From: Candidatus Electronema halotolerans
Lineage (GTDB): Bacteria > Desulfobacterota > Desulfobulbia > Desulfobulbales > Desulfobulbaceae
Reading direction: 5' to 3'
Assembly: GCA_942493095.1 (NCBI GenBank)
Contig: OW818675.1
Location: forward strand, 2,190,001 to 2,222,000
DNA length: 32,000 nt
Of this stretch, positions 1 through 29,023 are shown one piece after another (positions within the stretch are counted from its first letter, which is position 1; every line of letters starts with the position of its first letter). Under the pieces are notes generated by a model. The model saw nothing but the letters and a program-made list of their open reading frames with translations, had not been told where the DNA came from and ran no database searches. A program made the translations under genes and the position numbers.

Positions 1-378
1 AGCTTCCGGCACGGATGTGTCCGCATCATCCTCCATGCTGAAGAAGTCATCCAAGCCCTCATCTTCCGCTTCAGGCAGGGCCGCCGCTTCAGCATCCGGC
101 TCTGGAGCTTCCTCATCGCCGAAGAGACTTTCAGCTCCAAGCATGTCGTCAGCATCGTCCAAACTCAAACTGGCCGCGTCCTCAGCTTCAGCTTCCGGCA
201 CGGAAGTGTCCGCATCATCCTCCATGCTGAAGAAGTCATCCAAGCCCTCATCTTCCGCTTCAGGCAGGGCCGCCGCTTCAGCATCCGGTTCTGGAGCTTC
301 CTCCTCGCCGAAGAGACTTTCAGCCCCCAGCATGTCGTCAGCATCGTCCAGACTCAGACTGGCCGCTTCCTCTGCTTC
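1..378. repeat. Two tandem 189-nt (63-codon) units inside the acidic-protein gene
   Basis: Positions 1-189 and 190-378 align without gaps and differ at 9 positions by my count (about 95% identity). Diverged copies continue to about 1000. More copies may lie left of the window edge. Confidence 0.9.
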
Positions 379-3129
379 AGCTTGTTTTGTCTCTGGAGCT
401 TCCTCATCATCAAAAAGGCTGTCAGCAGTCAGTTCTTCAACATCGTCCAGACTCAAGCTGGCTATTTCGCCAGCATCCGACGGCTCTGCTGGCGTCTCTT
501 CTGCTCCGAAGAGACTTTCAGTTCCAAGCATGTCGGCATCGTCCAAATGCAGAGCGGTGGTTTCTTCAGCTTCTGGTGCGGACGTATCTGTGTCCTCATC
601 CATGCTGAAGAAACTGTCAGCACTCAGTTCTTCCGCATCGTCGAAACCAAGACTGGCTGATTCCTCTTCAGCGTCTGGCGCGGCTGCGTCTAACTCTTCA
701 TCCATGCTGAAAAAGTCATCCATGCCATCATCCTCTGCATCAGACAAAGTTGCCACTTCCGGCTCTGGAGTTTCTTCTGCTCCGAAGAGTTTGTCAGCTT
801 CCAGCATGTCAACATCATCCAAGCTCAGGCTGGCTGACTCCTCTTCAATTTCCGGCGGCTCTGTCTCTGCTGGGGCATCTTCTTCTCCAAAGACAAGACT
901 TTCAGCTTCCAGCATGTCAGCATCGTCCAAGCTCAAGCTGGCCGCTTCCTCAGCTTCAGGTTCAGTTGCGGATGTGTCGGCATTTTCATTCACCATTCCA
1001 GCCGCCGGTTCCGACTCTGAAGTTTTCTCATCGTCAAAAAGACGTTCAGCTCCAAACATGTCGTCATCAAGGTTGAAGAAAGAATCCAACTCGTCATCTT
1101 CTTCCTCAGACTGGGCAGCCGCCTTTTTTTCCAGCTGCGACCCTTCCTCAGCCTTGACCGCAGGCGCGTCATCATCAAAACTGAGAAGGGAGTCCATGCC
1201 GTCATCCTCTGCATCAGACAAAGCTGCGACAGGCTCCTCTGTCAGAGGGCTTTCCTCCGCCTCAGTTTTCAAGGCGGCAGCAGGCTCATTGTCGTCATCA
1301 AAATTGAAGAAAGAGTCTAATTCGTCATCGCTGTCGTCATCTTCATCATCCTCTCCAACCAAGGCGGCAACCGGCTGCGCTGGCACCGACTTCTCTGTCA
1401 AGGGACTGTCTTCCGTCTCTGTTTTCAAGGCGGCAGCAGGCTCATCGTCGTCATCAAAGTTGAAGAAGGAGTCTAATTCTAATTCATCATCCTCGTCGTC
1501 ATCTTCATCATCTTCTCCGGCCAAGGCGGCAACCGGCTGCGCTGGCACCGACTTCTCTGTCAAGGAACTGTTTTCCGTCTCAGCTTTCAAGGCGGCAGCA
1601 GGCTCATCGTCGTCATCAAAGTTGAAGAAGGAGTCTAATTCTAATTCAGAATCGTCATCATCTGAAGTCTCCGCAAGAGACATCGCAGGTTCGGCTGGCT
1701 CTGTTTCCAGATTTGCGCTCTTTTCTGTTTTATGCTGCGGACTCTCTACTGTCTGAGCTGCTCCGCCTGTATCTTCATCATCAAAATTAAAAAAGGAATC
1801 CAGTTTCTCATCAAATTCCGCCGCCCGCTCTTCCGTGATATCGCTTTCCAGTTTGGCAGCAAAGCCTCCTTCCTCATCCTCATCCGCCAAAGCCGGTGTC
1901 ACCCCTCCGTCACTGCTGAAAAGAGCTTCTCCCGGCCATTCATCATCGTCATCCTCATCCGCCGCAGGACGCAGCGAGGCGGCGGCTTGTGCAGGAGCCG
2001 CCTTTTCTGCAGGCGGAGCTTGTTTTGCAACAGCGTCCTCAGCAAAAAGATCATCTGCGGAACTGTCGTCCTCGTCATCAAACAGGTCCTCAATATCCAT
2101 CTCATCATCGGCAGCCGCGCTCGTCTCCTCCTGAGCAGCCGGTGCCTTTCCGGCGGCAGGAGCAGGCTCCTGTTCCGCTGAAGGCGCAACCTCCTCCTCT
2201 TCGGCCTCTGCGGCAGCGGCGGAACCTGCGGATTTGGCAATGACATCTTTCAAACTGTTGAGGCTGCCGATCTGCTCCACCAATATCTGCCGCCGCTGTT
2301 CCGCCGCCAAATTGGGACTGTCCAGCAGCATTTTCAGCGCATCATAAAAGGAATGGAGAATGGTGAAGGAATCTGGATGGGCATTGCTGGTCTGCTCGCG
2401 GATATAGGCTCCCAAGGCTTGCAGCCCCTGCACTAAGACCTGCGCCTCGGTGTTGCCGCTCAGATGCTGGCGCAGCGCAGATGCCTGCTGGTGGAATTGC
2501 TCCAAGCCCTCATCCGTGACATCCCACTCCAGACCAAGAATAGTGGCCTCCATGCTGCGGAGCGGCTCTGGAATATTGCTCTTCTCCTCTTCAGGAGCCG
2601 ACTTCTCAGGCGCAGGGGCAACGACAAGCTCCTCCTGCTCTTCCGCAACAGCCTCAGAAGGAGGCTCCTTGGCGGCCTTGGCCTTCCGCAGCGCGCTGAT
2701 TTGATACTGGAGGACCTTGAACTTGCGGATGTCGGCCTTGAGCATGGCCGTGATGTTCTCGCCGCTGATGTTGGGTGAGGAAATTATTTTTTCATAGTTG
2801 TAATAGAGCGTGAGCAGCAGCTTGATGGCATTGGGGTGAGCGTAGGCGCCTTCCGCCCGCAGATACTGCCCCACATTGTCCATGCCTTGGAGGTAAATCT
2901 GCGCGACCTTGTCCTCTTTCCAGAGGGCTTTCAGGTTGGCCAACTCTTCACTCAACTCAGTCAGGATATCATCGGTGATGTCCCAGTCCAGCGAGAGAAC
3001 GATTGATTTGAGTCTGAGCAGCGGCGAATCATCATCCTCTGCAAATTCAAACAAATCAACCTCTTCTGTATCAAACGACTCGTCTGCAAACTGGGTGAGA
3101 TCTTCAAACTCGTTGATTGAAGGGGCCAT
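1..3129 (-). CDS. Large hyper-acidic tandem-repeat protein; N-terminal 1043 codons, ORF still open at the window edge (partial)
   Basis: Absent from the supplied ORF track because it has no stop in the window. I read plus-strand frame 1 (positions 1,4,7...) from 1 to 3129 and found no TTA/CTA/TCA triplet, so there is no minus-strand stop. The ATG is the complement of cat at 3127-3129, 57 nt after the mglA-like stop. Translation starts MAPSINEFEDLTQFADESFD. It has two homologous helical modules (..LSLDWDITDD.., ..LGLEWDVTDE..) followed by D/E-rich repeats (LDSFFNFDDDDEPAAALK.., ASLSLDDADDMLGAESLFGEEE..). The 579-aa Ser-rich plus ORF at 17..1756 is its mirror image. Confidence 0.8.
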   Translation of the reverse strand, partial: MAPSINEFEDLTQFADESFDTEEVDLFEFAEDDDSPLLRLKSIVLSLDWDITDDILTELSEELANLKALWKEDKVAQIYLQGMDNVGQYLRAEGAYAHPNAIKLLLTLYYNYEKIISSPNISGENITAMLKADIRKFKVLQYQISALRKAKAAKEPPSEAVAEEQEELVVAPAPEKSAPEEEKSNIPEPLRSMEATILGLEWDVTDEGLEQFHQQASALRQHLSGNTEAQVLVQGLQALGAYIREQTSNAHPDSFTILHSFYDALKMLLDSPNLAAEQRRQILVEQIGSLNSLKDVIAKSAGSAAAAEAEEEEVAPSAEQEPAPAAGKAPAAQEETSAAADDEMDIEDLFDDEDDSSADDLFAEDAVAKQAPPAEKAAPAQAAASLRPAADEDDDDEWPGEALFSSDGGVTPALADEDEEGGFAAKLESDITEERAAEFDEKLDSFFNFDDEDTGGAAQTVESPQHKTEKSANLETEPAEPAMSLAETSDDDDSELELDSFFNFDDDDEPAAALKAETENSSLTEKSVPAQPVAALAGEDDEDDDEDDELELDSFFNFDDDDEPAAALKTETEDSPLTEKSVPAQPVAALVGEDDEDDDSDDELDSFFNFDDDNEPAAALKTEAEESPLTEEPVAALSDAEDDGMDSLLSFDDDAPAVKAEEGSQLEKKAAAQSEEEDDELDSFFNLDDDMFGAERLFDDEKTSESEPAAGMVNENADTSATEPEAEEAASLSLDDADMLEAESLVFGEEDAPAETEPPEIEEESASLSLDDVDMLEADKLFGAEETPEPEVATLSDAEDDGMDDFFSMDEELDAAAPDAEEESASLGFDDAEELSADSFFSMDEDTDTSAPEAEETTALHLDDADMLGTESLFGAEETPAEPSDAGEIASLSLDDVEELTADSLFDDEEAPETKQAEAEEAASLSLDDADDMLGAESLFGEEEAPEPDAEAAALPEAEDEGLDDFFSMEDDADTSVPEAEAEDAASLSLDDADDMLGAESLFGDEEAPEPDAEAAALPEAEDEGLDDFFSMEDDADTSVPEA
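1262..1650. repeat. Second in-gene tandem repeat family (periods 156 and 162 nt; two full copies plus one partial)
   Basis: The string caaggcggcagcagg recurs at 1270, 1426 and 1588. Long near-identical flanks encode ELELDSFFNFDDDDEPAAALK.ETE.S.LTEKSVPAQPVAAL.GEDDEDDD. Confidence 0.85.
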
Positions 3130-25080: not shown

Positions 25081-26166
25081 ATGCAGATCAATGGCAAACC
25101 GTGGCGCAGCATCTGGCTGGAAAACGATGGTCAGAGCGTGGGCATTATTGATCAGACCAAACTGCCGCATCGCTTTGAGACAATCCGGCTGACCAGCGCA
25201 GAGGATGCGGTCGCAGCCATCCGTGACATGCTGGTGCGCGGCGCGCCGCTGATCGGGGCAACCGCAGCATGGGGCATTTTTCTCGGCCTGCGGGAGGACA
25301 GCTCCGATGCCGGTTTGGAGACGGTTTGCGCGAAACTGCTCCAAGCCAGACCAACAGCGGTCAATCTGCGCTGGGCTGTGGAGCGGATGCGGAACCTGCT
25401 GGCAGTGCTGCCGTCGGACCAGCGGCCCGATGCCGCCCGCAGTGAGGCCGCAGCCATCTGCGAGGAGGACGTGCGCCTCAACGAGGCCATCGGCGGGCAT
25501 GGCCTGCGTCTGATTGCCGCGCAATATCAGCAGAAAAAAAGAATAATCAACATCCTCACCCACTGCAACGCGGGCTGGTTAGCCACAGTTGACTGGGGCA
25601 CAGCCTTGGCTCCGATCTACAAGGCGCAGGCCGCTGGCATTCCTGTTCATGTCTGGGTGGATGAGACCCGGCCCCGCAATCAGGGCGCGCATCTCACGGC
25701 CTGGGAGCTGGCCGCCGCAGGCATCGACCATCATCTGATTGCCGACAACAGCGGCGGTCATCTCATGCGGCAGGGCCGGGTTGATCTCTGCCTTGTCGGC
25801 AGCGACCGCACCACTGCCAGCGGCGATGTCTGCAATAAGATCGGCACCTATCTGAAAGCGTTAGCTGCGGCAGACAACAACGTTCCCTTTTATGTGGCCC
25901 TGCCCGGCTCAACCATTGACTGGACGCTGACCGACGGCATGGCAATTCCGATTGAAGAGCGGGCGGAAGAGGAGGTGCTCTTTGTTTCCGGGCAGGCCGA
26001 GGACGGCAGCATCCGGCAGGTGCGCATTGCCCCGGAGCAGACGCGGGCAGGCAATCCCGCCTTTGACGTGACCCCGGCCCGCCTTGTCACCGGCCTGATC
26101 ACGGAACGCGGCCTCTGCGCGGCGAGTCGGGAGGGACTGCGGGAGCTGTTCCCGGAGCAGGGGTGA
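25081..26166 (+). CDS. mtnA: S-methyl-5-thioribose-1-phosphate isomerase (eIF-2B alpha/beta/delta-like family)
   Basis: 361 aa with ..[11 protein letters not shown]......ED...[20 protein letters not shown], ..RPTAVNL.WA.. and ..[23 protein letters not shown].. ..[19 protein letters not shown]...A....VPFYVA.P.STID. GAGGA RBS. Confidence 0.9.
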
Positions 26167-26576
26167 CAACTTCTCTTCCGTGGTAAAAATGAGCATCCAG
26201 AGCGGCAAGTTTTTTTGACAGACAGGCAACATACGGAAACCATACGCCGTTTGCCTCCTGAACTCATTTGCTGACAGATTGCAACATGGAACAGAGCTTT
26301 GCGTAACAGGAAGTAGGCCGTTTGAACAAAGCGGCTGTCCTCGGCAGAAGAGGACAAGAACGCGGTGAAAAAGGAGGCTGTGATGATTGGCGGAAGCATT
26401 CCCAAGCTGCTGCAGCAAGAGGCCAACGAGGTGCGGCAGGCGTTGGAGAAGATTGGAGCCGGGCTGCCTGCTGAGATTTCAGCGGCCGGCACCATGCTGA
26501 TTGTCGCTGACAGCTCTGTGCTGGTTGCTCTGGCGTTGTGCGTTTGATTGAGGGGACGCTTGCGCTGGCAGGGGAA

Positions 26577-26731
26577 AAACCATCTTGCATGTCTTGCGGA
26601 AACCATCTATATAGTATGGTCGGAACCATCTGGATGGTTTTCCAAAACCATTTAGATGGTTTCCTCTAAACCATTCAGTATGTTTCCCCGGAACTATCCT
26701 AATGGTTTTCCTGAAACCATCCAGATTGTTT
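26577..26731. repeat. Array of seven 18-bp imperfect palindromes RAACCAT-N4-ATGGTTT phased every 22-23 bp
   Basis: Left half-sites start at 26577, 26600, 26623, 26645, 26668, 26691 and 26714 (spacings 23,23,22,23,23,23). Unit 4 is perfect (aaaccat ttag atggttt) and units 3, 6 and 7 each have one mismatch. Units 1, 2 and 5 are degenerate (unit 2 has a 9-nt centre). Confidence 0.85.
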
Positions 26732-26767
26732 TTCAGGCGGGCTGAGGGAAGGGGCGGCAGGCCAGTG
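26719..26767 (+). repeat. Left copy of the 45-bp perfect (49 bp with 1 mismatch) direct repeat bracketing the TA cassette
   Basis: atccagattgtttttcaggcgggctgagggaaggggcggcaggcc at 26719-26763 is identical to 27519-27563. The track confirms this through the shared peptide TGLPPLPSARLKNNLD in two minus-strand ORFs. Confidence 0.95.
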
Positions 26768-26860
26768 CGCGAGGCTGAACAGGTTGCTTTTGTTGTGCGC
26801 CACAGGATAAGATAGATGCGGTCTGCCTGACTTGACTGCAACTATTCACAAGAGGAAGAT

Positions 26861-27106
26861 ATGGATGCTAAACTGACCTTGCAAATAGATGGTTCCGTCA
26901 TTGCATCTGCGAAACAGTTCGCTGCTGCGCGTCACACTTCGCTGTCAAAGCTGGTGGAGAACTACCTGAAAAGCATCACTCGTGAAACTGGCCAGGAGAA
27001 ACGGCTGCCGGGCGTTGTCGGCGAACTTGCCGGTCTGCTGAAGGGCGTGGATGCGGACGAAAGCAGGAAAGCGCAGGCTGATCATCTGGAAGAGAAGTAC
27101 AGATGA
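26861..27106 (+). CDS. Type II antitoxin (DUF6364-like, partner of the PIN toxin)
   Basis: The 81-aa ORF MDAKLTLQIDGSVIASAKQFAAARHTSLSKLVENYLKSI.. matches the small antitoxin family usually paired with PIN toxins. GAGGA RBS. Its stop overlaps the toxin start as ATGA. Confidence 0.7.
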   Translation: MDAKLTLQIDGSVIASAKQFAAARHTSLSKLVENYLKSITRETGQEKRLPGVVGELAGLLKGVDADESRKAQADHLEEKYR

Positions 27107-27513
27107 ATACGATCTTTCTGGATGCGGATGTCATTCTTGATCTGCTGACAGAGCGGGAGCCGCATTTTGAACCGGCAGCACAGCTCTTTCTCAGGATTCA
27201 GGGTAAGGAGCTGAACGCCTGCACTTCGCCGGTTGTCATCGCCAACATCTTTTACATCCTCAACAAGCATATTGGCCGGGAAAGAGCGGTTCAGGCAATC
27301 AGAAAACTCAGGACTCTGGTCAAGGTGCTCACTTGCGGAGAACGCATCATTGATGCGGCGCTTGCTTCAGATTTTACTGATTTTGAAGATGCGATCCAAT
27401 ACAGCACTGCGCTGGCGCACAAGATAGACACGCTCATCACAAGAAATGTGACAGATTACAAAACAGCAACGATCAAGATAGTGACACCGCTTGAGTATAT
27501 CGAAAGCATGTAA
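27103..27513 (+). CDS. vapC: PIN-domain toxin (VapC family)
   Basis: 136 aa with N-terminal FLDADVILD (first acidic residue), a central E, DFEDAIQ and C-terminal LITRNVTDY, the canonical PIN acidic constellation and layout. Confidence 0.8.
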   Translation: MNTIFLDADVILDLLTEREPHFEPAAQLFLRIQGKELNACTSPVVIANIFYILNKHIGRERAVQAIRKLRTLVKVLTCGERIIDAALASDFTDFEDAIQYSTALAHKIDTLITRNVTDYKTATIKIVTPLEYIESM

Positions 27514-27518
27514 ATTGT

Positions 27519-27567
27519 ATCCAGATTGTTTTTCAGGCGGGCTGAGGGAAGGGGCGGCAGGCCGGTG
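27519..27567 (+). repeat. Right copy of the direct repeat bracketing the TA cassette
   Basis: It lies exactly 800 bp from the left copy and starts 6 nt after the vapC stop. Confidence 0.95.
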
Positions 27568-27719: not shown

Positions 27720-28401
27720 GTGCTCAACGCCTTTCGGCATCAAAGATAGAATCACCTTTCTGACACTGCCAGTCACGTTCCCATCGCCCTGTGCTCAACG
27801 CCTTTCGGCATCAAAGATAGAATCACAAACCGAGATATAAAATGTACAATTCTGTGACACTGTGCTCAACGCCTTTCGGCATCAAAGATAGAATCACCAC
27901 TCACAGCGAACTTCCGGCTCACCGTTGACGATGTGCTCAACGCCTTTCGGCATCAAAGATAGAATCACGCCTGCGCTGATGCTTTGTCGGCATGGTCTCG
28001 ATACAAGGTGCTCAACGCCTTTCGGCATCAAAGATAGAATCACCAGGTTGAGGAGGTCATCGTACTGGGCTTTGCGTTGTGCTCAACGCCTTTCGGCATC
28101 AAAGATAGAATCACTCCATACCTGCGGCGGCAGAAAAGTTTCTGACACGGCCGTGCTCAACGCCTTTCGGCATCAAAGATAGAATCACTTCCTTGGTCAA
28201 TCCTTGGTTAATCCTTCTTTAGCGTGCTCAACGCCTTTCGGCATCAAAGATAGAATCACACAGCAGCCACCAAGACCACAACAGAGCAGACCACGTGCTC
28301 AACGCCTTTCGGCATCAAAGATAGAATCACCTGGAAGAGGATGACAGATTTAAGGTAAGGGCCTGGTGCTCAACGCCTTTCGGCATCAAAGATAGAATCA
28401 C
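27720..28401. CRISPR. CRISPR array: 10 identical 36-bp repeats and 9 spacers (35-39 bp); no cas genes in the window
   Basis: The repeat GTGCTCAACGCCTTTCGGCATCAAAGATAGAATCAC starts at 27720, 27791, 27862, 27933, 28008, 28079, 28153, 28224, 28295 and 28366. Spacer lengths are 35,35,35,39,35,38,35,35,35 and all spacers are unique. Orientation is unresolved: all repeats are identical, and the reverse complement ends GTTGAGCAC, only loosely like the ATTGAAAC class-1 handle. Confidence 0.95.
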
Positions 28402-28694
28402 AGCCCTTCCCGCAGCTCCCTGCTGACGGGCTGTGCAGCACGATAAATCAAGCTGGCCTGCTGTTCCGCTGCTGCTGCCTGCAATACGAGCAATTTCTTT
28501 TAGCCCTCCCTTGCTCAGGTTAATGGTTTTGCATGAAAAAATCCCAAATCAAGCACCTGCTGCCCCTGTCGGCGGCTACATTCAGCCGCTGTAGCAGTAC
28601 GTTACCGCCGATATCTGCAAACCTGCTGATAGTATCATGGATGCCCATGAGTTGGCAAGAAAATTTTTCTCGTTCTTCTGCTCCAGCGCGGGAA

Positions 28695-28922
28695 TCAGCT
28701 TGTTGCTCTGATCGGACTGACATCCCCTGCTGTCACCCGGTGTTCTCTGCCGGACGCATCCGCAACAATATATCGCCCATCCTCGGCCAAACCCGCGCCA
28801 ACCGTTGGGAGCATTTCCTTGCCGCTGTCATACTCCAAGGGCTTGCCAAGCAGATAATCTAACCTGCGCCATTCTTCCAGCAGAGCAGTCTTGCCGCCGT
28901 TCTCAAGCCGCTGCCCTGCCGT
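28695..28922 (-). pseudogene. birA: Remnant encoding only the C-terminal domain of a biotin--protein ligase (BirA-like)
   Basis: ..RLENGGKTALLEEWRRLDYLLGKPLEYDSGKEMLPTVGAGLAEDGRYIVADASGREHRVTAGDVSPIR follows the BirA C-terminal pattern (F..G...l..W..l....G..V.......G.a.giD..G.L.v.......v.aGeVs.R). No catalytic domain lies upstream, and the similarity starts right at the 28930-28980 inverted repeat. Confidence 0.4.
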
Positions 28923-28929
28923 GTGCAGA

Positions 28930-28980
28930 TGTTCCATGCCGGGCAGCAGAGCCGGAACATCTGCTGCCCGGCATGGAACA
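28930..28980. repeat. 20-bp perfect inverted repeat with an 11-nt loop
   Basis: tgttccatgccgggcagcag (28930-28949) pairs with ctgctgcccggcatggaaca (28961-28980). An alternative 10-bp pairing exists between cagatgttcc (28926-28935) and ggaacatctg (28954-28963). Confidence 0.85.
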
Positions 28981-29023
28981 CTGGGAGGAAATGACCATGC
29001 CAAAGAGTGCGAATAGCGCGTAA

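What the first reader, a model, noticed from the sequence alone, without database searches (positions are those of the whole stretch)
26577..26731. Seven palindromic RAACCAT-N4-ATGGTTT sites phased at 23 bp: iteron/centromere/operator-like array of unknown function
The phasing is strikingly regular (23,23,22,23,23,23 bp) for 18-bp dyads, with one perfect unit, three near-perfect units and three degenerate units. The array is non-coding; the 120-aa minus ORF across it is an artefact. Arrays of dyad-symmetric or direct sites at about two-helical-turn spacing are known from replication origins (iterons, for example lambda-type ori with palindromic iterons). They are also known from partition centromeres and cooperative repressor operators bound by RHH/HTH dimers. 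This array lies 130 bp upstream of the TA cassette. With the 800-bp cassette removed, it would lie about 200 bp from the first CRISPR repeat. It could therefore be a relic ori or par site of an integrated element, the operator of a regulator encoded elsewhere, or a leader-associated element of the CRISPR array. On RNA each unit would also form a 7-bp hairpin.
Basis: partly seen in the sequence, partly recalled or inferred. Interest (0 to 1): 0.7.

Follow-up and report, generated by a model that had tools for sequence, protein, structure and literature searches.

The report
Variable tandem array of palindromic sites
A real, non-coding run of seven 23-bp repeats, each built around an AACCAT-N4-ATGGTT palindrome, sits in a junk-rich, strain-specific spot of a cable-bacterium chromosome. 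It looks like a multi-site docking platform for a DNA-binding protein, it changes between strains, it is not a CRISPR leader element, and the protein that binds it is unknown.

Summary
Seven AACCAT starts lie 23, 23, 22, 23, 23 and 23 bp apart (26578-26737). There are four dyad matches with at most 1 mismatch, against 0.04 expected by chance. The same array occurs in three independent short-read assemblies. The organism is Candidatus Electronema halotolerans, a cable bacterium.

The array is non-coding: a second allele (L106) lacks exactly one 23-bp unit, which would shift any reading frame. Between the two alleles the array differs about seven times more per base than its flanks. Within the array the half-sites, above all the left AACCAT, are better kept than the centres and linkers.

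The region downstream of mtnA differs in every related lineage I could fetch. Relatives of the CRISPR repeat show that the leader lies on the far side of the CRISPR array, so the dyad array is on the trailer side. No rep or par gene, AT-rich stretch or DnaA box lies near it, and no homologous array turned up in the genome, metagenome, plasmid or phage searches.

My best reading (confidence about 0.4) is a cooperative protein-binding array of operator type that evolves like a minisatellite. Candidate binders are the adjacent DUF6364 (RHH-like)/PIN toxin-antitoxin complex, whose phage relatives use paired palindromes exactly 23 bp apart, or an HTH regulator encoded elsewhere. A functionless relic is a serious rival. 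Interest is modest.

The parts
26576..26737 (.). The whole array: seven units with a 22-23-bp period. Unit consensus is about GGAAACCATCYAGATGGTTTYCC, a 22-bp near-palindrome.
26578..26593 (+). Unit 1. The left half AACCAT is intact; the right half is degenerate (CATGTC).
26601..26621 (+). Unit 2. The left half is intact. The right half ATGGT is displaced by about 5 nt (AACCATCTATATAGTATGGT).
26624..26639 (.). Unit 3, a perfect dyad AACCATCTGGATGGTT. In allele L106 it reads GGCCATCCTAATGGTT, with centre and right half like unit 6.
26646..26661 (.). Unit 4, a perfect dyad AACCATTTAGATGGTT. In L106 the centre is TCAG.
26666..26688 (.). Unit 5 (AACCATTCAGTATGTT at 26669-26684). This 23-bp block is absent from allele L106.
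26692..26707 (.). Unit 6, AACTATCCTAATGGTT (1 mismatch).
26715..26730 (.). Unit 7, AACCATCCAGATTGTT (1 mismatch). It is a perfect dyad in L106. Its right part lies inside the 49-bp direct repeat.
26719..26767 (+). Copy 1 of the 49-bp direct repeat. It starts inside unit 7 and contains GCTGAGGGAAGGGG.
27519..27567 (+). Copy 2 of the 49-bp direct repeat (98% identical), directly after the PIN gene. It carries half of a dyad unit.
26383..26547 (+). A 54-aa ORF with a strong ribosome-binding site (AAGGAGG), ending 30 bp before unit 1. It belongs to a tiny family (5 clusters) and equals CAK8720242.1 of Ca. Electronema halotolerans.
26861..27513 (+). DUF6364 antitoxin (26861-27106) and PIN_3 toxin (27103-27513). 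This complex is the candidate binder.
27720..28401 (-). Orphan CRISPR array of ten 36-nt repeats, with no cas genes in the window. It is inferred to be transcribed on the minus strand, so the dyad array lies at its trailer end.

Best explanation
The array is a non-coding stack of operator-type sites. It acts as a platform on which a sequence-specific DNA-binding protein docks, one dimer per AACCAT-N4-ATGGTT dyad. Neighbouring dimers touch, or are bridged, across the 23-bp (about two-turn) repeat, so occupancy is cooperative.

The array itself evolves like a minisatellite. Whole 23-bp units are gained, lost and overwritten by other units.

The binder is not identified. There are two candidates. 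The first is the DUF6364 (RHH-like) antitoxin/PIN toxin complex encoded 124 bp downstream, because complexes of this family measure out exactly 23 bp between their two operator sites. The second is a (winged) HTH regulator encoded elsewhere, because ACCAT-N4-ATGGT dyads at 22-23-bp phasing serve as operators for wHTH proteins in other bacteria.

Shown: the array is real, it is non-coding, its half-sites are conserved, it varies by whole units, it lies on the CRISPR trailer side, and origin and partition hallmarks are absent. Inferred: that a protein binds it, that binding is cooperative, and which protein binds.
For: (1) The phasing and dyad structure are far beyond chance.

(2) Conservation within the array is position-specific. 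Mismatches to the unit consensus are 1/42 in the left half, 10/42 in the right half, 10/28 in the centre and 17/49 in the linker. Halves against the rest gives p=0.0014. For units 3-7 alone it is 5/60 against 18/55, p=0.002. Neutral decay of a duplication would not produce this pattern.

(3) Both alleles keep at least two perfect dyads, although different units are perfect in each: units 3 and 4 in the window, units 4 and 7 in L106.

(4) In three viral contigs, DUF6364+PIN_3 modules carry two ACGT-centred palindromes exactly 23 bp apart over the -10 region. The DUF6364 N-terminus scores weakly as RHH_1 and is predicted as strand-helix-helix. From my own knowledge, FitAB (RHH+PIN) binds 8-bp inverted repeats with centres 22 bp apart.

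(5) The same core dyad acts as a promoter-overlapping operator pair, 22 bp apart, at six wHTH-nucleotidyltransferase TA operons. It also occurs as three 23-bp repeats immediately upstream of AAA_14+DUF4143 ATPase genes in three phyla. Non-coding hits prefer periods of 22-23 bp (28 of 41), while coding hits prefer 21 or 24.

(6) A second Electronema species (KV, L027) has one array of seven 23-bp units with the same ACCAT-N4-ATGGT core at an unrelated locus. It was the only hit in that genome.
Against: No binder is demonstrated. No HTH or RHH regulator gene other than the antitoxin lies in the window.

The array does not overlap the TA promoter, which I read by eye as -35 at 26784-26789 and -10 at 26808-26813. 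That promoter region holds no AACCAT-N4-ATGGTT dyad, only a TAGATG hexamer.

The 49-bp repeat shows that the TA cassette and the array were joined or separated by a rearrangement. Their adjacency may therefore be secondary.

None of the 60-odd ACCAT-dyad loci elsewhere encodes a DUF6364 or related PIN protein. The three phage DUF6364 loci are related to one another, so they are not independent.

The right halves are decayed in 3 of 7 units, and taken alone they are not significantly better kept than the linkers (p=0.22).

The array differs between alleles about 7 times more per base than its flanks (9/142 against 4/420, p=0.0009; seven of the nine changes sit in one unit). It also sits among gene remnants. 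Both facts fit weak or no constraint.

Nothing homologous was found outside this species.
Confidence: 0.4

Rival explanations
1. It is a functionless minisatellite or decaying relic. A single palindromic site (an old operator or hairpin) was amplified by replication slippage. It now drifts, expands and contracts with no present role.
For: There is a one-unit (23-bp) indel and a unit-to-unit overwrite between two alleles that are 99% identical in their flanks. Per-base divergence is about 7-fold higher in the array. The edge units (1, 2) are degenerate. The setting is junk-rich: a BirA C-terminal remnant, an orphan CRISPR array, and a region downstream of mtnA that differs in five lineages. The Electronema KV array has units 97% identical, which indicates recent expansion.
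Against: The left half-site is kept at 41 of 42 positions while linkers and centres have diverged by about 35%. Uniform neutral decay would not do that, although concerted evolution could blur the argument. Both alleles retain perfect dyads.
Confidence: 0.25
2. It is the relic, or still active, iteron origin or partition centromere of a plasmid-like element that integrated here. The TA module would be its addiction system and the CRISPR array its cargo.
For: There are seven direct AACCAT repeats at a 22-23-bp period, the geometry of classic iterons (from my own knowledge, the R6K gamma origin has seven 22-bp iterons). The left (direct-repeat) half is conserved more than the right half, p=0.007. 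A TA cassette lies next door. The island is strain-specific. A Collinsella plasmid-like 4.1-kb contig carries a similar array together with a Mob_Pre gene.
Against: No rep, par, integrase or mobilisation gene was found among the window ORFs scanned. The flanks have 48-60% GC with no AT-rich unwinding element. There is no DnaA box within 1 kb. blastn against 72,556 plasmids and 50,697 phages gives nothing. The island is only about 3 kb.
Confidence: 0.12
3. It is a REP/BIME-like or RNA-level element: a string of hairpins in the 3' untranslated region of the 54-aa ORF that stabilises or terminates the transcript, or a member of a dispersed palindromic repeat family.
For: The array starts 30 bp after the stop codon of a small ORF that has a strong ribosome-binding site and is kept in frame between alleles. 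The region folds much better than shuffles do, z=-5.0 as RNA. In Bacteroidales and some other genomes, arrays of 22-23-bp palindromic units occur at several intergenic loci per genome, including between convergent genes.
Against: No other copy exists in the 32-kb window or in about 70 kb of other Electronema loci. There is only one array locus in the Electronema KV genome. The stems are identical in sequence across units, with no compensatory changes. No T-run terminator was called on the plus strand. Rfam finds nothing meaningful. A fraying right arm breaks the hairpins in 3 of 7 units.
Confidence: 0.08
4. It is a CRISPR leader-associated element that regulates transcription of, or spacer acquisition by, the adjacent array.
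For: Proximity only: about 182 bp from the first repeat once the TA cassette is removed.
Against: In L100 and L101 (repeat differing by 1 nt) the truncated, degenerate repeat lies on the side that corresponds to the dyad array. A flank conserved over at least 100 bp, AT-rich and carrying TATAAT, lies on the other side. The repeat ends in ...GCCGAAAGGCGTTGAGCAC on the minus strand, which is the usual hairpin plus 8-nt handle. The best Rfam CRISPR-DR match is also on the minus strand. No dyads occur next to the related arrays.
Confidence: 0.03
5. It is the end of a decayed Tn7-like, CRISPR-associated transposon, with the repeats acting as stacked transposase (TnsB) binding sites.
For: This is a recalled lead only. 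Tn7-family ends carry 3-4 abutting sites of about 22 bp, and in type I-F3 elements the CRISPR trailer faces an end. As I remember them, the Tn6677 sites contain AACCAT.
Against: No tnsA, tnsB, tnsC or tniQ gene and no cas gene is in the window. The units are palindromic and there are seven of them. Relatives of this CRISPR repeat form long canonical arrays of 34 to 95 repeats. No second end was found.
Confidence: 0.03

Closest known systems
Operators of RHH/PIN toxin-antitoxin complexes (FitAB and VapBC type), and the DUF6364+PIN_3 loci found here in viral contigs (L110-L112)
   Same: Short palindromic sites are spaced about two helical turns apart: 23 bp exactly in L110-L112, and 22 bp in FitAB from my own knowledge. 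A module of the same family sits next to the array.
   Different: Those operators have two sites that overlap the -10 region. Here there are seven sites that end 50 bp upstream of the putative -35, with a different and wider recognition sequence (5-N4-5). The junction with the cassette is a rearrangement scar.
Plasmid iterons (for example the seven 22-bp iterons of the R6K gamma origin, or pPS10 and pSC101) and the dyad-symmetric iterons of the lambda origin
   Same: The copy number (about 7), the 22-23-bp period and a conserved directly repeated core. Lambda-type iterons are also palindromic.
   Different: There is no rep (or O) gene, no AT-rich unwinding element and no DnaA or IHF sites. The array is chromosomal and sits between housekeeping genes.
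Partition centromeres made of tandem repeats (F sopC, pSK41 and R1 parC, tubC)
   Same: A tandem run of dimer-binding sites that could wrap into a higher-order nucleoprotein complex.
   Different: There is no adjacent parA/parB, parM/parR or tubZ/tubR operon. The repeat length and sequence are unrelated.
ACCAT-N4-ATGGT operator pairs and triplets found here: at wHTH-nucleotidyltransferase TA operons (L005, L015, L019, L033, L060, L063) and upstream of AAA_14+DUF4143 ATPases (L003, L025, L047)
   Same: The same core dyad, the same 22-23-bp phasing, and a non-coding location.
   Different: Those have 2-3 sites that abut or overlap the promoter of an identifiable gene encoding a wHTH domain. The flanking bases differ (TACCAT against AACCAT). 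No such gene lies next to the window array.
REP/BIME and other dispersed palindromic repeat clusters; bacterial minisatellites (VNTRs)
   Same: Imperfect palindromes of 20-35 nt in intergenic DNA, sometimes in tandem, with unit-number polymorphism between strains.
   Different: REP families are present in tens to hundreds of loci per genome. Only one locus is seen here, and one in Electronema KV.

Membership tests
Iteron-type replication origin | Tandem direct repeats of 17-22 bp at about two-turn phasing | tested here: met
   Seven AACCAT repeats at 22-23 bp.
Iteron-type replication origin | Adjacent rep (initiator) gene | tested here: not met
   A Pfam scan of the window ORFs finds only housekeeping genes, a TA module and unknowns.
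Iteron-type replication origin | Adjacent AT-rich unwinding region and DnaA boxes | tested here: not met
   GC is 0.475-0.60 around the array. The nearest DnaA-box-like site is about 1 kb away, and the count equals chance.
Partition centromere | Repeat array next to a parA/parB, parM/parR or tubZ/tubR operon | tested here: not met
   No such gene is in the window.
TA operator (RHH/PIN type) | Palindromic sites about 22-23 bp apart | tested here: met
   The period is 23 bp, the same spacing as in DUF6364+PIN_3 loci L110-L112.
TA operator (RHH/PIN type) | Sites overlap the TA promoter and are of the sequence the antitoxin recognises | tested here: not met
   The array ends at 26737 and the putative -35 is at 26784. 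No dyad lies in 26768-26860. Binding itself is not testable here.
CRISPR leader element | Lies on the leader (transcription-start, new-spacer) side of the array | tested here: not met
   In L100 and L101 the degenerate repeat lies on the side facing the dyad array and the conserved AT-rich flank on the opposite side. Rfam's best match is on the minus strand.
REP/BIME dispersed repeat | Imperfect palindromic unit of 20-40 nt in intergenic DNA | tested here: met
   The unit is a 22-bp near-palindrome.
REP/BIME dispersed repeat | Many dispersed copies per genome | tested here: inconclusive
   There are none elsewhere in the window or in about 70 kb of other Electronema loci, and one locus in the KV genome. 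The rest of this genome could not be scanned.
Minisatellite / VNTR | Unit-number polymorphism between close strains | tested here: met
   Seven against six units, with an exact 23-bp indel, plus a unit overwrite.
Tn7-like transposon end | tnsA/B/C genes and a second inverted end with the same sites | tested here: not met
   Neither is present in the window.

The most novel reading that the evidence does not exclude
Two Candidatus Electronema species each carry one array of about seven 23-bp units built on the same ACCAT-N4-ATGGT core. The arrays lie at unrelated chromosomal positions. They could be the cis sites of a cable-bacterium-specific DNA-binding protein: a single-copy, centromere-like or architectural locus that moves and turns over quickly. 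In the window locus the junction 'half unit + GCTGAGGGAAGGGG' recurs three times and brackets the array and the TA cassette. That recurrence might mark a previously undescribed cassette-capture or recombination site.
Probability: 0.07. Interest if true: 0.65.

Novelty: new member of a known kind. Interest (0 to 1): 0.3.

Why it matters
If a protein does bind cooperatively to this array, it would be a compact natural example of a copy-number-variable 'super-operator' or protein sink next to a toxin-antitoxin module. Cable bacteria cannot yet be grown in pure culture or manipulated genetically, so the array would also give a concrete DNA bait for fishing out regulators from them.

The by-products may be more generally useful. 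One is a fixed 23-bp operator spacing for DUF6364/PIN modules. Another is a recurring ACCAT-N4-ATGGT operator architecture upstream of the uncharacterised AAA_14+DUF4143 ATPases and of wHTH-nucleotidyltransferase antitoxins.

If the array is only a decaying minisatellite, it is ordinary, though it would still serve as a strain marker.

Tried and rejected
(1) Homology searches for the array found nothing. I ran blastn against plasmids and phages. I searched 5.8 billion proteins with the spurious ORF that spans the array. I ran an exact two-unit pattern against metagenome contigs (26 hits, none homologous, and the source contig is absent). I also ran Rfam at gathering and E-value thresholds (only spurious miRNA-like hairpin matches).

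(2) I tested the idea that the 54-aa ORF upstream is a remnant of a DUF6364/PIN pair. BLASTP shows no similarity. The ORF is instead homologous over its whole length to a tiny family of 52-144-aa proteins. The idea is rejected.

(3) I compared AAA_14/DUF4143 ATPases with the gene fragments right of the CRISPR array by tblastn and found nothing. That fragment is a weak BirA C-terminal remnant.

(4) Synteny gave no help. The DNA downstream of mtnA is unrelated in L096, L097, L098 and L107.

(5) I looked for an isolated extra half-site. GGAAACCATA at 26235 is not conserved in L106. Half-site-like 10-mers are not significantly enriched around the array.

(6) Flank homology between the window array and the Electronema KV array is limited to one shared 11-mer, which is marginal.

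(7) An AlphaFold single-sequence model of the antitoxin (pLDDT 73) shows a strand-helix-helix start. Foldseek against the PDB was uninformative. phmmer against the PDB gives only E=0.28 to a CopG RHH protein.

(8) I looked by eye for a sigma-54 upstream activating sequence with its promoter. There is no GG-N10-GC promoter at the right spacing.

(9) A CsrA/RsmZ-like GGA-loop small RNA does not fit, because GGA is present in only some units.

(10) The literature gave nothing. The Ca. Electronema halotolerans genome paper (PMC10030654) does not mention CRISPR, toxins or this repeat.

Full report
WHAT IS THERE. Window 26576-26737 holds seven units of 22-23 bp. The AACCAT hexamers start at 26578, 26601, 26624, 26646, 26669, 26692 and 26715. 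The unit consensus is about GGAAACCATCYAGATGGTTTYCC, a 22-bp near-palindrome. Units 3 and 4 are perfect AACCAT-N4-ATGGTT dyads. Units 6 and 7 have one mismatch each. Unit 5 has a one-base slip in its right half. Units 1 and 2 keep only the left half. With at most 1 mismatch the dyad occurs 4 times in 32 kb, all of them here, against 0.04 expected. Tandem Repeats Finder also reports the array. GC drops to about 0.48 over the array, against 0.55-0.66 in the neighbouring genes.

ORGANISM AND SETTING. The flanking MtnA protein is closest to Candidatus Electronema proteins. The 54-aa ORF just upstream of the array is identical to CAK8720242.1 of Ca. Electronema halotolerans, on a 3.2-Mb contig. Gene order in this part of the window is as follows:
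- mtnA, 25081-26166, plus strand.
- The 54-aa ORF, 26383-26547.
- The dyad array.
- Copy 1 of the 49-bp direct repeat, 26719-26767.
- The DUF6364 antitoxin (26861-27106) and the PIN_3 toxin (27103-27513).
- Copy 2 of the 49-bp repeat, 27519-27567.
- 152 bp of spacer DNA.
- Ten 36-nt CRISPR repeats, 27720-28401.
- A BirA C-terminal remnant and other open fragments.
- rmlA (29247) and rmlD.

No cas, rep, par, integrase or transposase gene was found among the window ORFs scanned. Downstream of mtnA the DNA is unrelated in four other Electronema lineages (L096, L097, L098, L107). The 3-kb stretch between mtnA and rmlA is therefore strain-specific.

A SECOND ALLELE. A Logan contig, L106, whose MtnA is 99% identical, carries the same locus. 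Two further contigs, L108 and L109, are identical to the window. Compared with the window, L106 differs as follows:
- It lacks exactly one unit, the 23-bp block 26666-26688.
- Its unit 3 is rewritten at 7 positions, so that the centre and right half equal unit 6.
- Its unit 4 has one change in the centre.
- Its unit 7 is a perfect dyad.
- It has 51 extra bp just left of unit 1. This segment contains GCTGAGGGAAAGGG, an imperfect direct copy of the motif that follows the array.

Substitutions number 9 in 142 aligned bp of array against 4 in 420 bp of flank (p=0.0009). Seven of the nine lie in one unit, so they probably reflect a single conversion event. The 23-bp indel rules out any coding function for the array. 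The 54-aa ORF, by contrast, differs only by an in-frame 3-bp indel and a synonymous change. All three short-read contigs stop inside the 49-bp repeat, as expected if that repeat is duplicated in those strains too.

CONSTRAINT WITHIN THE ARRAY. Mismatches to the unit consensus are 1/42 in the left half-site, 10/42 in the right half-site, 10/28 in the 4-nt centre and 17/49 in the linker. Half-sites against the rest gives p=0.0014. Left against right gives p=0.007. The right half alone against the rest is not significant. The best-kept feature is therefore a directly repeated AACCAT at a 23-bp period, which is extended to a dyad in four or five units.

THE CRISPR QUESTION. I searched the protein database with the spurious ORFs that gene callers predict across CRISPR repeats, and this recovered 182 arrays of the same repeat family. 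L100 and L101 have a repeat that differs by one base. In both, a truncated degenerate repeat sits one spacer length beyond the end that corresponds to the dyad side. The opposite flank is identical between the two contigs over at least 100 bp, is AT-rich and contains TATAAT. On the minus strand the repeat ends in a GCC-GAAA-GGC hairpin followed by an 8-nt UUGAGCAC handle. The best Rfam CRISPR-repeat match is also on the minus strand, though below threshold. The leader therefore lies on the rmlA side and the dyad array on the trailer side. The window's own leader-side flank does not resemble that of L100, and there are no cas genes, so this array is probably an orphan.

RELATED SEQUENCES ELSEWHERE. 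blastn of the array against plasmids and phages finds nothing. The ORF that spans it has no relative. An exact two-unit pattern found no homologue in metagenome contigs. A looser pattern, ACCAT-N4-ATGGT twice with a 6-11-nt gap, hit 64 loci in 185,579 representative genomes. These hits are heterogeneous:
- 23 lie in long open frames. Many of these encode His-rich repeats, and their periods are mostly 21 or 24 bp.
- 41 are non-coding, with a clear preference for periods of 22-23 bp (28 of 41).

Among the non-coding hits several groups stand out:
- Six loci have two TACCAT-N4-ATGGTA sites over the promoter of a wHTH-nucleotidyltransferase gene and its partner gene.
- Three loci from three phyla have three 23-bp ACCATGCAWATGGT units directly upstream of an AAA_14+DUF4143 ATPase gene.
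- A Collinsella plasmid-like contig carries an array together with a Mob_Pre gene.
- Several genomes (Bacteroidales, Polyangiaceae, Verrucomicrobiae, Clostridium) carry arrays at several intergenic loci each.
- One hit is in Ca. Electronema sp. KV (L027): seven 23-bp units, 97% identical to one another. They lie between a divergent AsmA-like gene and a GlcD-like gene whose ATG is 27 bp from the array.

The KV hit is the only one in that genome. It shares with the window array only the core dyad, the period and the copy number. The flanks share just one 11-mer.

THE TA LEAD. PIN relatives in viral contigs (L110-L112) are each preceded by a DUF6364 gene. The N-terminus of that protein scores weakly as RHH_1. 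In all three loci, two ACGT-centred palindromes lie exactly 23 bp apart, with the first overlapping the -10 region. The three loci are related to one another, so this amounts to one or two independent observations. It does agree with what I know of FitAB: an RHH/PIN complex that binds 8-bp inverted repeats with centres 22 bp apart. The period of the window array therefore matches the reach of the very type of complex encoded beside it.

Three facts count against the TA complex being the binder. The array stops 50 bp short of the putative -35 of the TA promoter. That promoter has no AACCAT dyad. The 49-bp repeat shows the junction to be a rearrangement scar. In addition, a 5-N4-5 dyad with half-site centres 9-10 bp apart is more typical of HTH dimers than of a single RHH dimer (my own knowledge).

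VERDICT. The array is real, non-coding, phased and partly under position-specific constraint, yet it turns over rapidly by whole units. I rank a cooperative operator-type protein-binding array first (about 0.4). The binder is unidentified; candidates are the DUF6364/PIN complex or an HTH regulator encoded elsewhere. The rivals are:
- A functionless minisatellite or relic (about 0.25).
- A relic iteron origin or centromere of an integrated plasmid-like element (about 0.12).
- A REP-like or RNA hairpin role (about 0.08).
- A CRISPR-leader role (about 0.03).
- A Tn7-like end (about 0.03).

The array is a new member of a known kind, namely tandem operator- or iteron-like repeats, and I found no description of it in the literature I could search. 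Interest is modest. The decisive experiments are a whole-genome motif scan and binding assays.

Noticed in passing
window 26719-26767 and 27519-27567: A 49-bp direct repeat (98% identical) brackets the 751-bp DUF6364+PIN_3 cassette. Its left edge lies inside dyad unit 7. Three independent short-read contigs (L106, L108, L109) end inside it. How the cassette got there is unresolved: a 49-bp target duplication, recombination of a small circle, or deletion of a second array.
   Followed up: partly
window 26741-26754, 27541-27554, 28403-28416 (-); L106 1856-1869: The motif GCTGAGGGAARGGG follows the array and follows the TA cassette. In allele L106 it also precedes the array, inside a 51-bp segment that the window has lost between GGCAG(G/C)GGAA microhomologies. 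A 2-mismatch inverted copy abuts the last CRISPR repeat.
   Followed up: partly
window 27720-28401: An orphan CRISPR array of ten identical 36-nt repeats, with no cas genes within 32 kb. The repeat family is widespread (182 spurious ORF hits). Relatives carry 34 to 95 repeats and show that the leader lies on the rmlA side. The window's leader-side flank is unrelated to theirs.
   Followed up: partly
window 26383-26547: A 54-aa ORF with a strong ribosome-binding site. It belongs to a family of only five clusters in 1.84 billion representative proteins. The N-terminal ~44 residues are conserved (SIPKLLQEANEV.QAL..IGAGLP.EISA.G) and the C-terminal lengths vary from 52 to 144 aa. Function unknown.
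   Followed up: partly
window 28695-29003 (-) and 28930-28980: A weak match to the C-terminal ~90 residues of biotin ligase BirA, suggesting a truncated pseudogene. Inside it is a perfect 21-bp inverted repeat with a 9-nt loop, which is unexplained.
   Followed up: no
L110 1205/1228, L111 1212/1235, L112 1197/1220: In three viral contigs the DUF6364+PIN_3 modules have two ACGT-centred palindromes exactly 23 bp apart across the -10 box. This is a probable family-wide operator geometry.
   Followed up: partly
L003 6946-7015, L025 1252-1312, L047 6519-6580: Three tandem 23-bp units containing ACCATGCA(A/T)ATGGT lie immediately upstream of AAA_14+DUF4143 ATPase genes in Actinomycetes, Coriobacteriia and Oscillospiraceae. 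They are a likely autoregulatory operator of this uncharacterised ATPase family.
   Followed up: partly
L005, L015, L019, L033, L060, L063: Two TACCAT-N4-ATGGTA dyads 22 bp apart overlap the promoter of an operon. The operon encodes a winged-HTH-nucleotidyltransferase fusion (MNT-like) and a partner protein of about 133 aa.
   Followed up: partly
L027 6772-6931 (Ca. Electronema sp. KV): Seven 23-bp units (CCTTACCATACTAATGGTACCGA), 97% identical to one another. They end 27 bp before the ATG of a GlcD-like gene and are divergent from an AsmA-like gene. This is the only such locus hit in that genome.
   Followed up: partly
L007/L028/L052; L004/L064; L036/L051/L055/L062; L002/L032; L041/L056: Several genomes carry arrays of 21-24-bp palindromic units at multiple intergenic loci. 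In the Bacteroidaceae loci L004 and L064 the half-sites are conserved while the spacers vary freely. These behave like dispersed repeat families or regulons.
   Followed up: no
L031 4372-4481: A dyad pair begins inside the 3' end of a tRNA-Pro gene. It looks like a duplicated attachment-site region of an integrated element.
   Followed up: no
window 1-383 and 1237-1648: Long coding tandem repeats (periods 189 and 162 bp, 90-95% identical) lie inside a 579-aa ORF (17-1756) that has no Pfam match.
   Followed up: no
L067 3482-3540 (viral contig): About 2.5 copies of a 24-bp unit containing ACCATCTGGATGGT, the same core as window unit 3. They lie in non-coding DNA about 1 kb downstream of a phage helicase gene.
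   Followed up: partly
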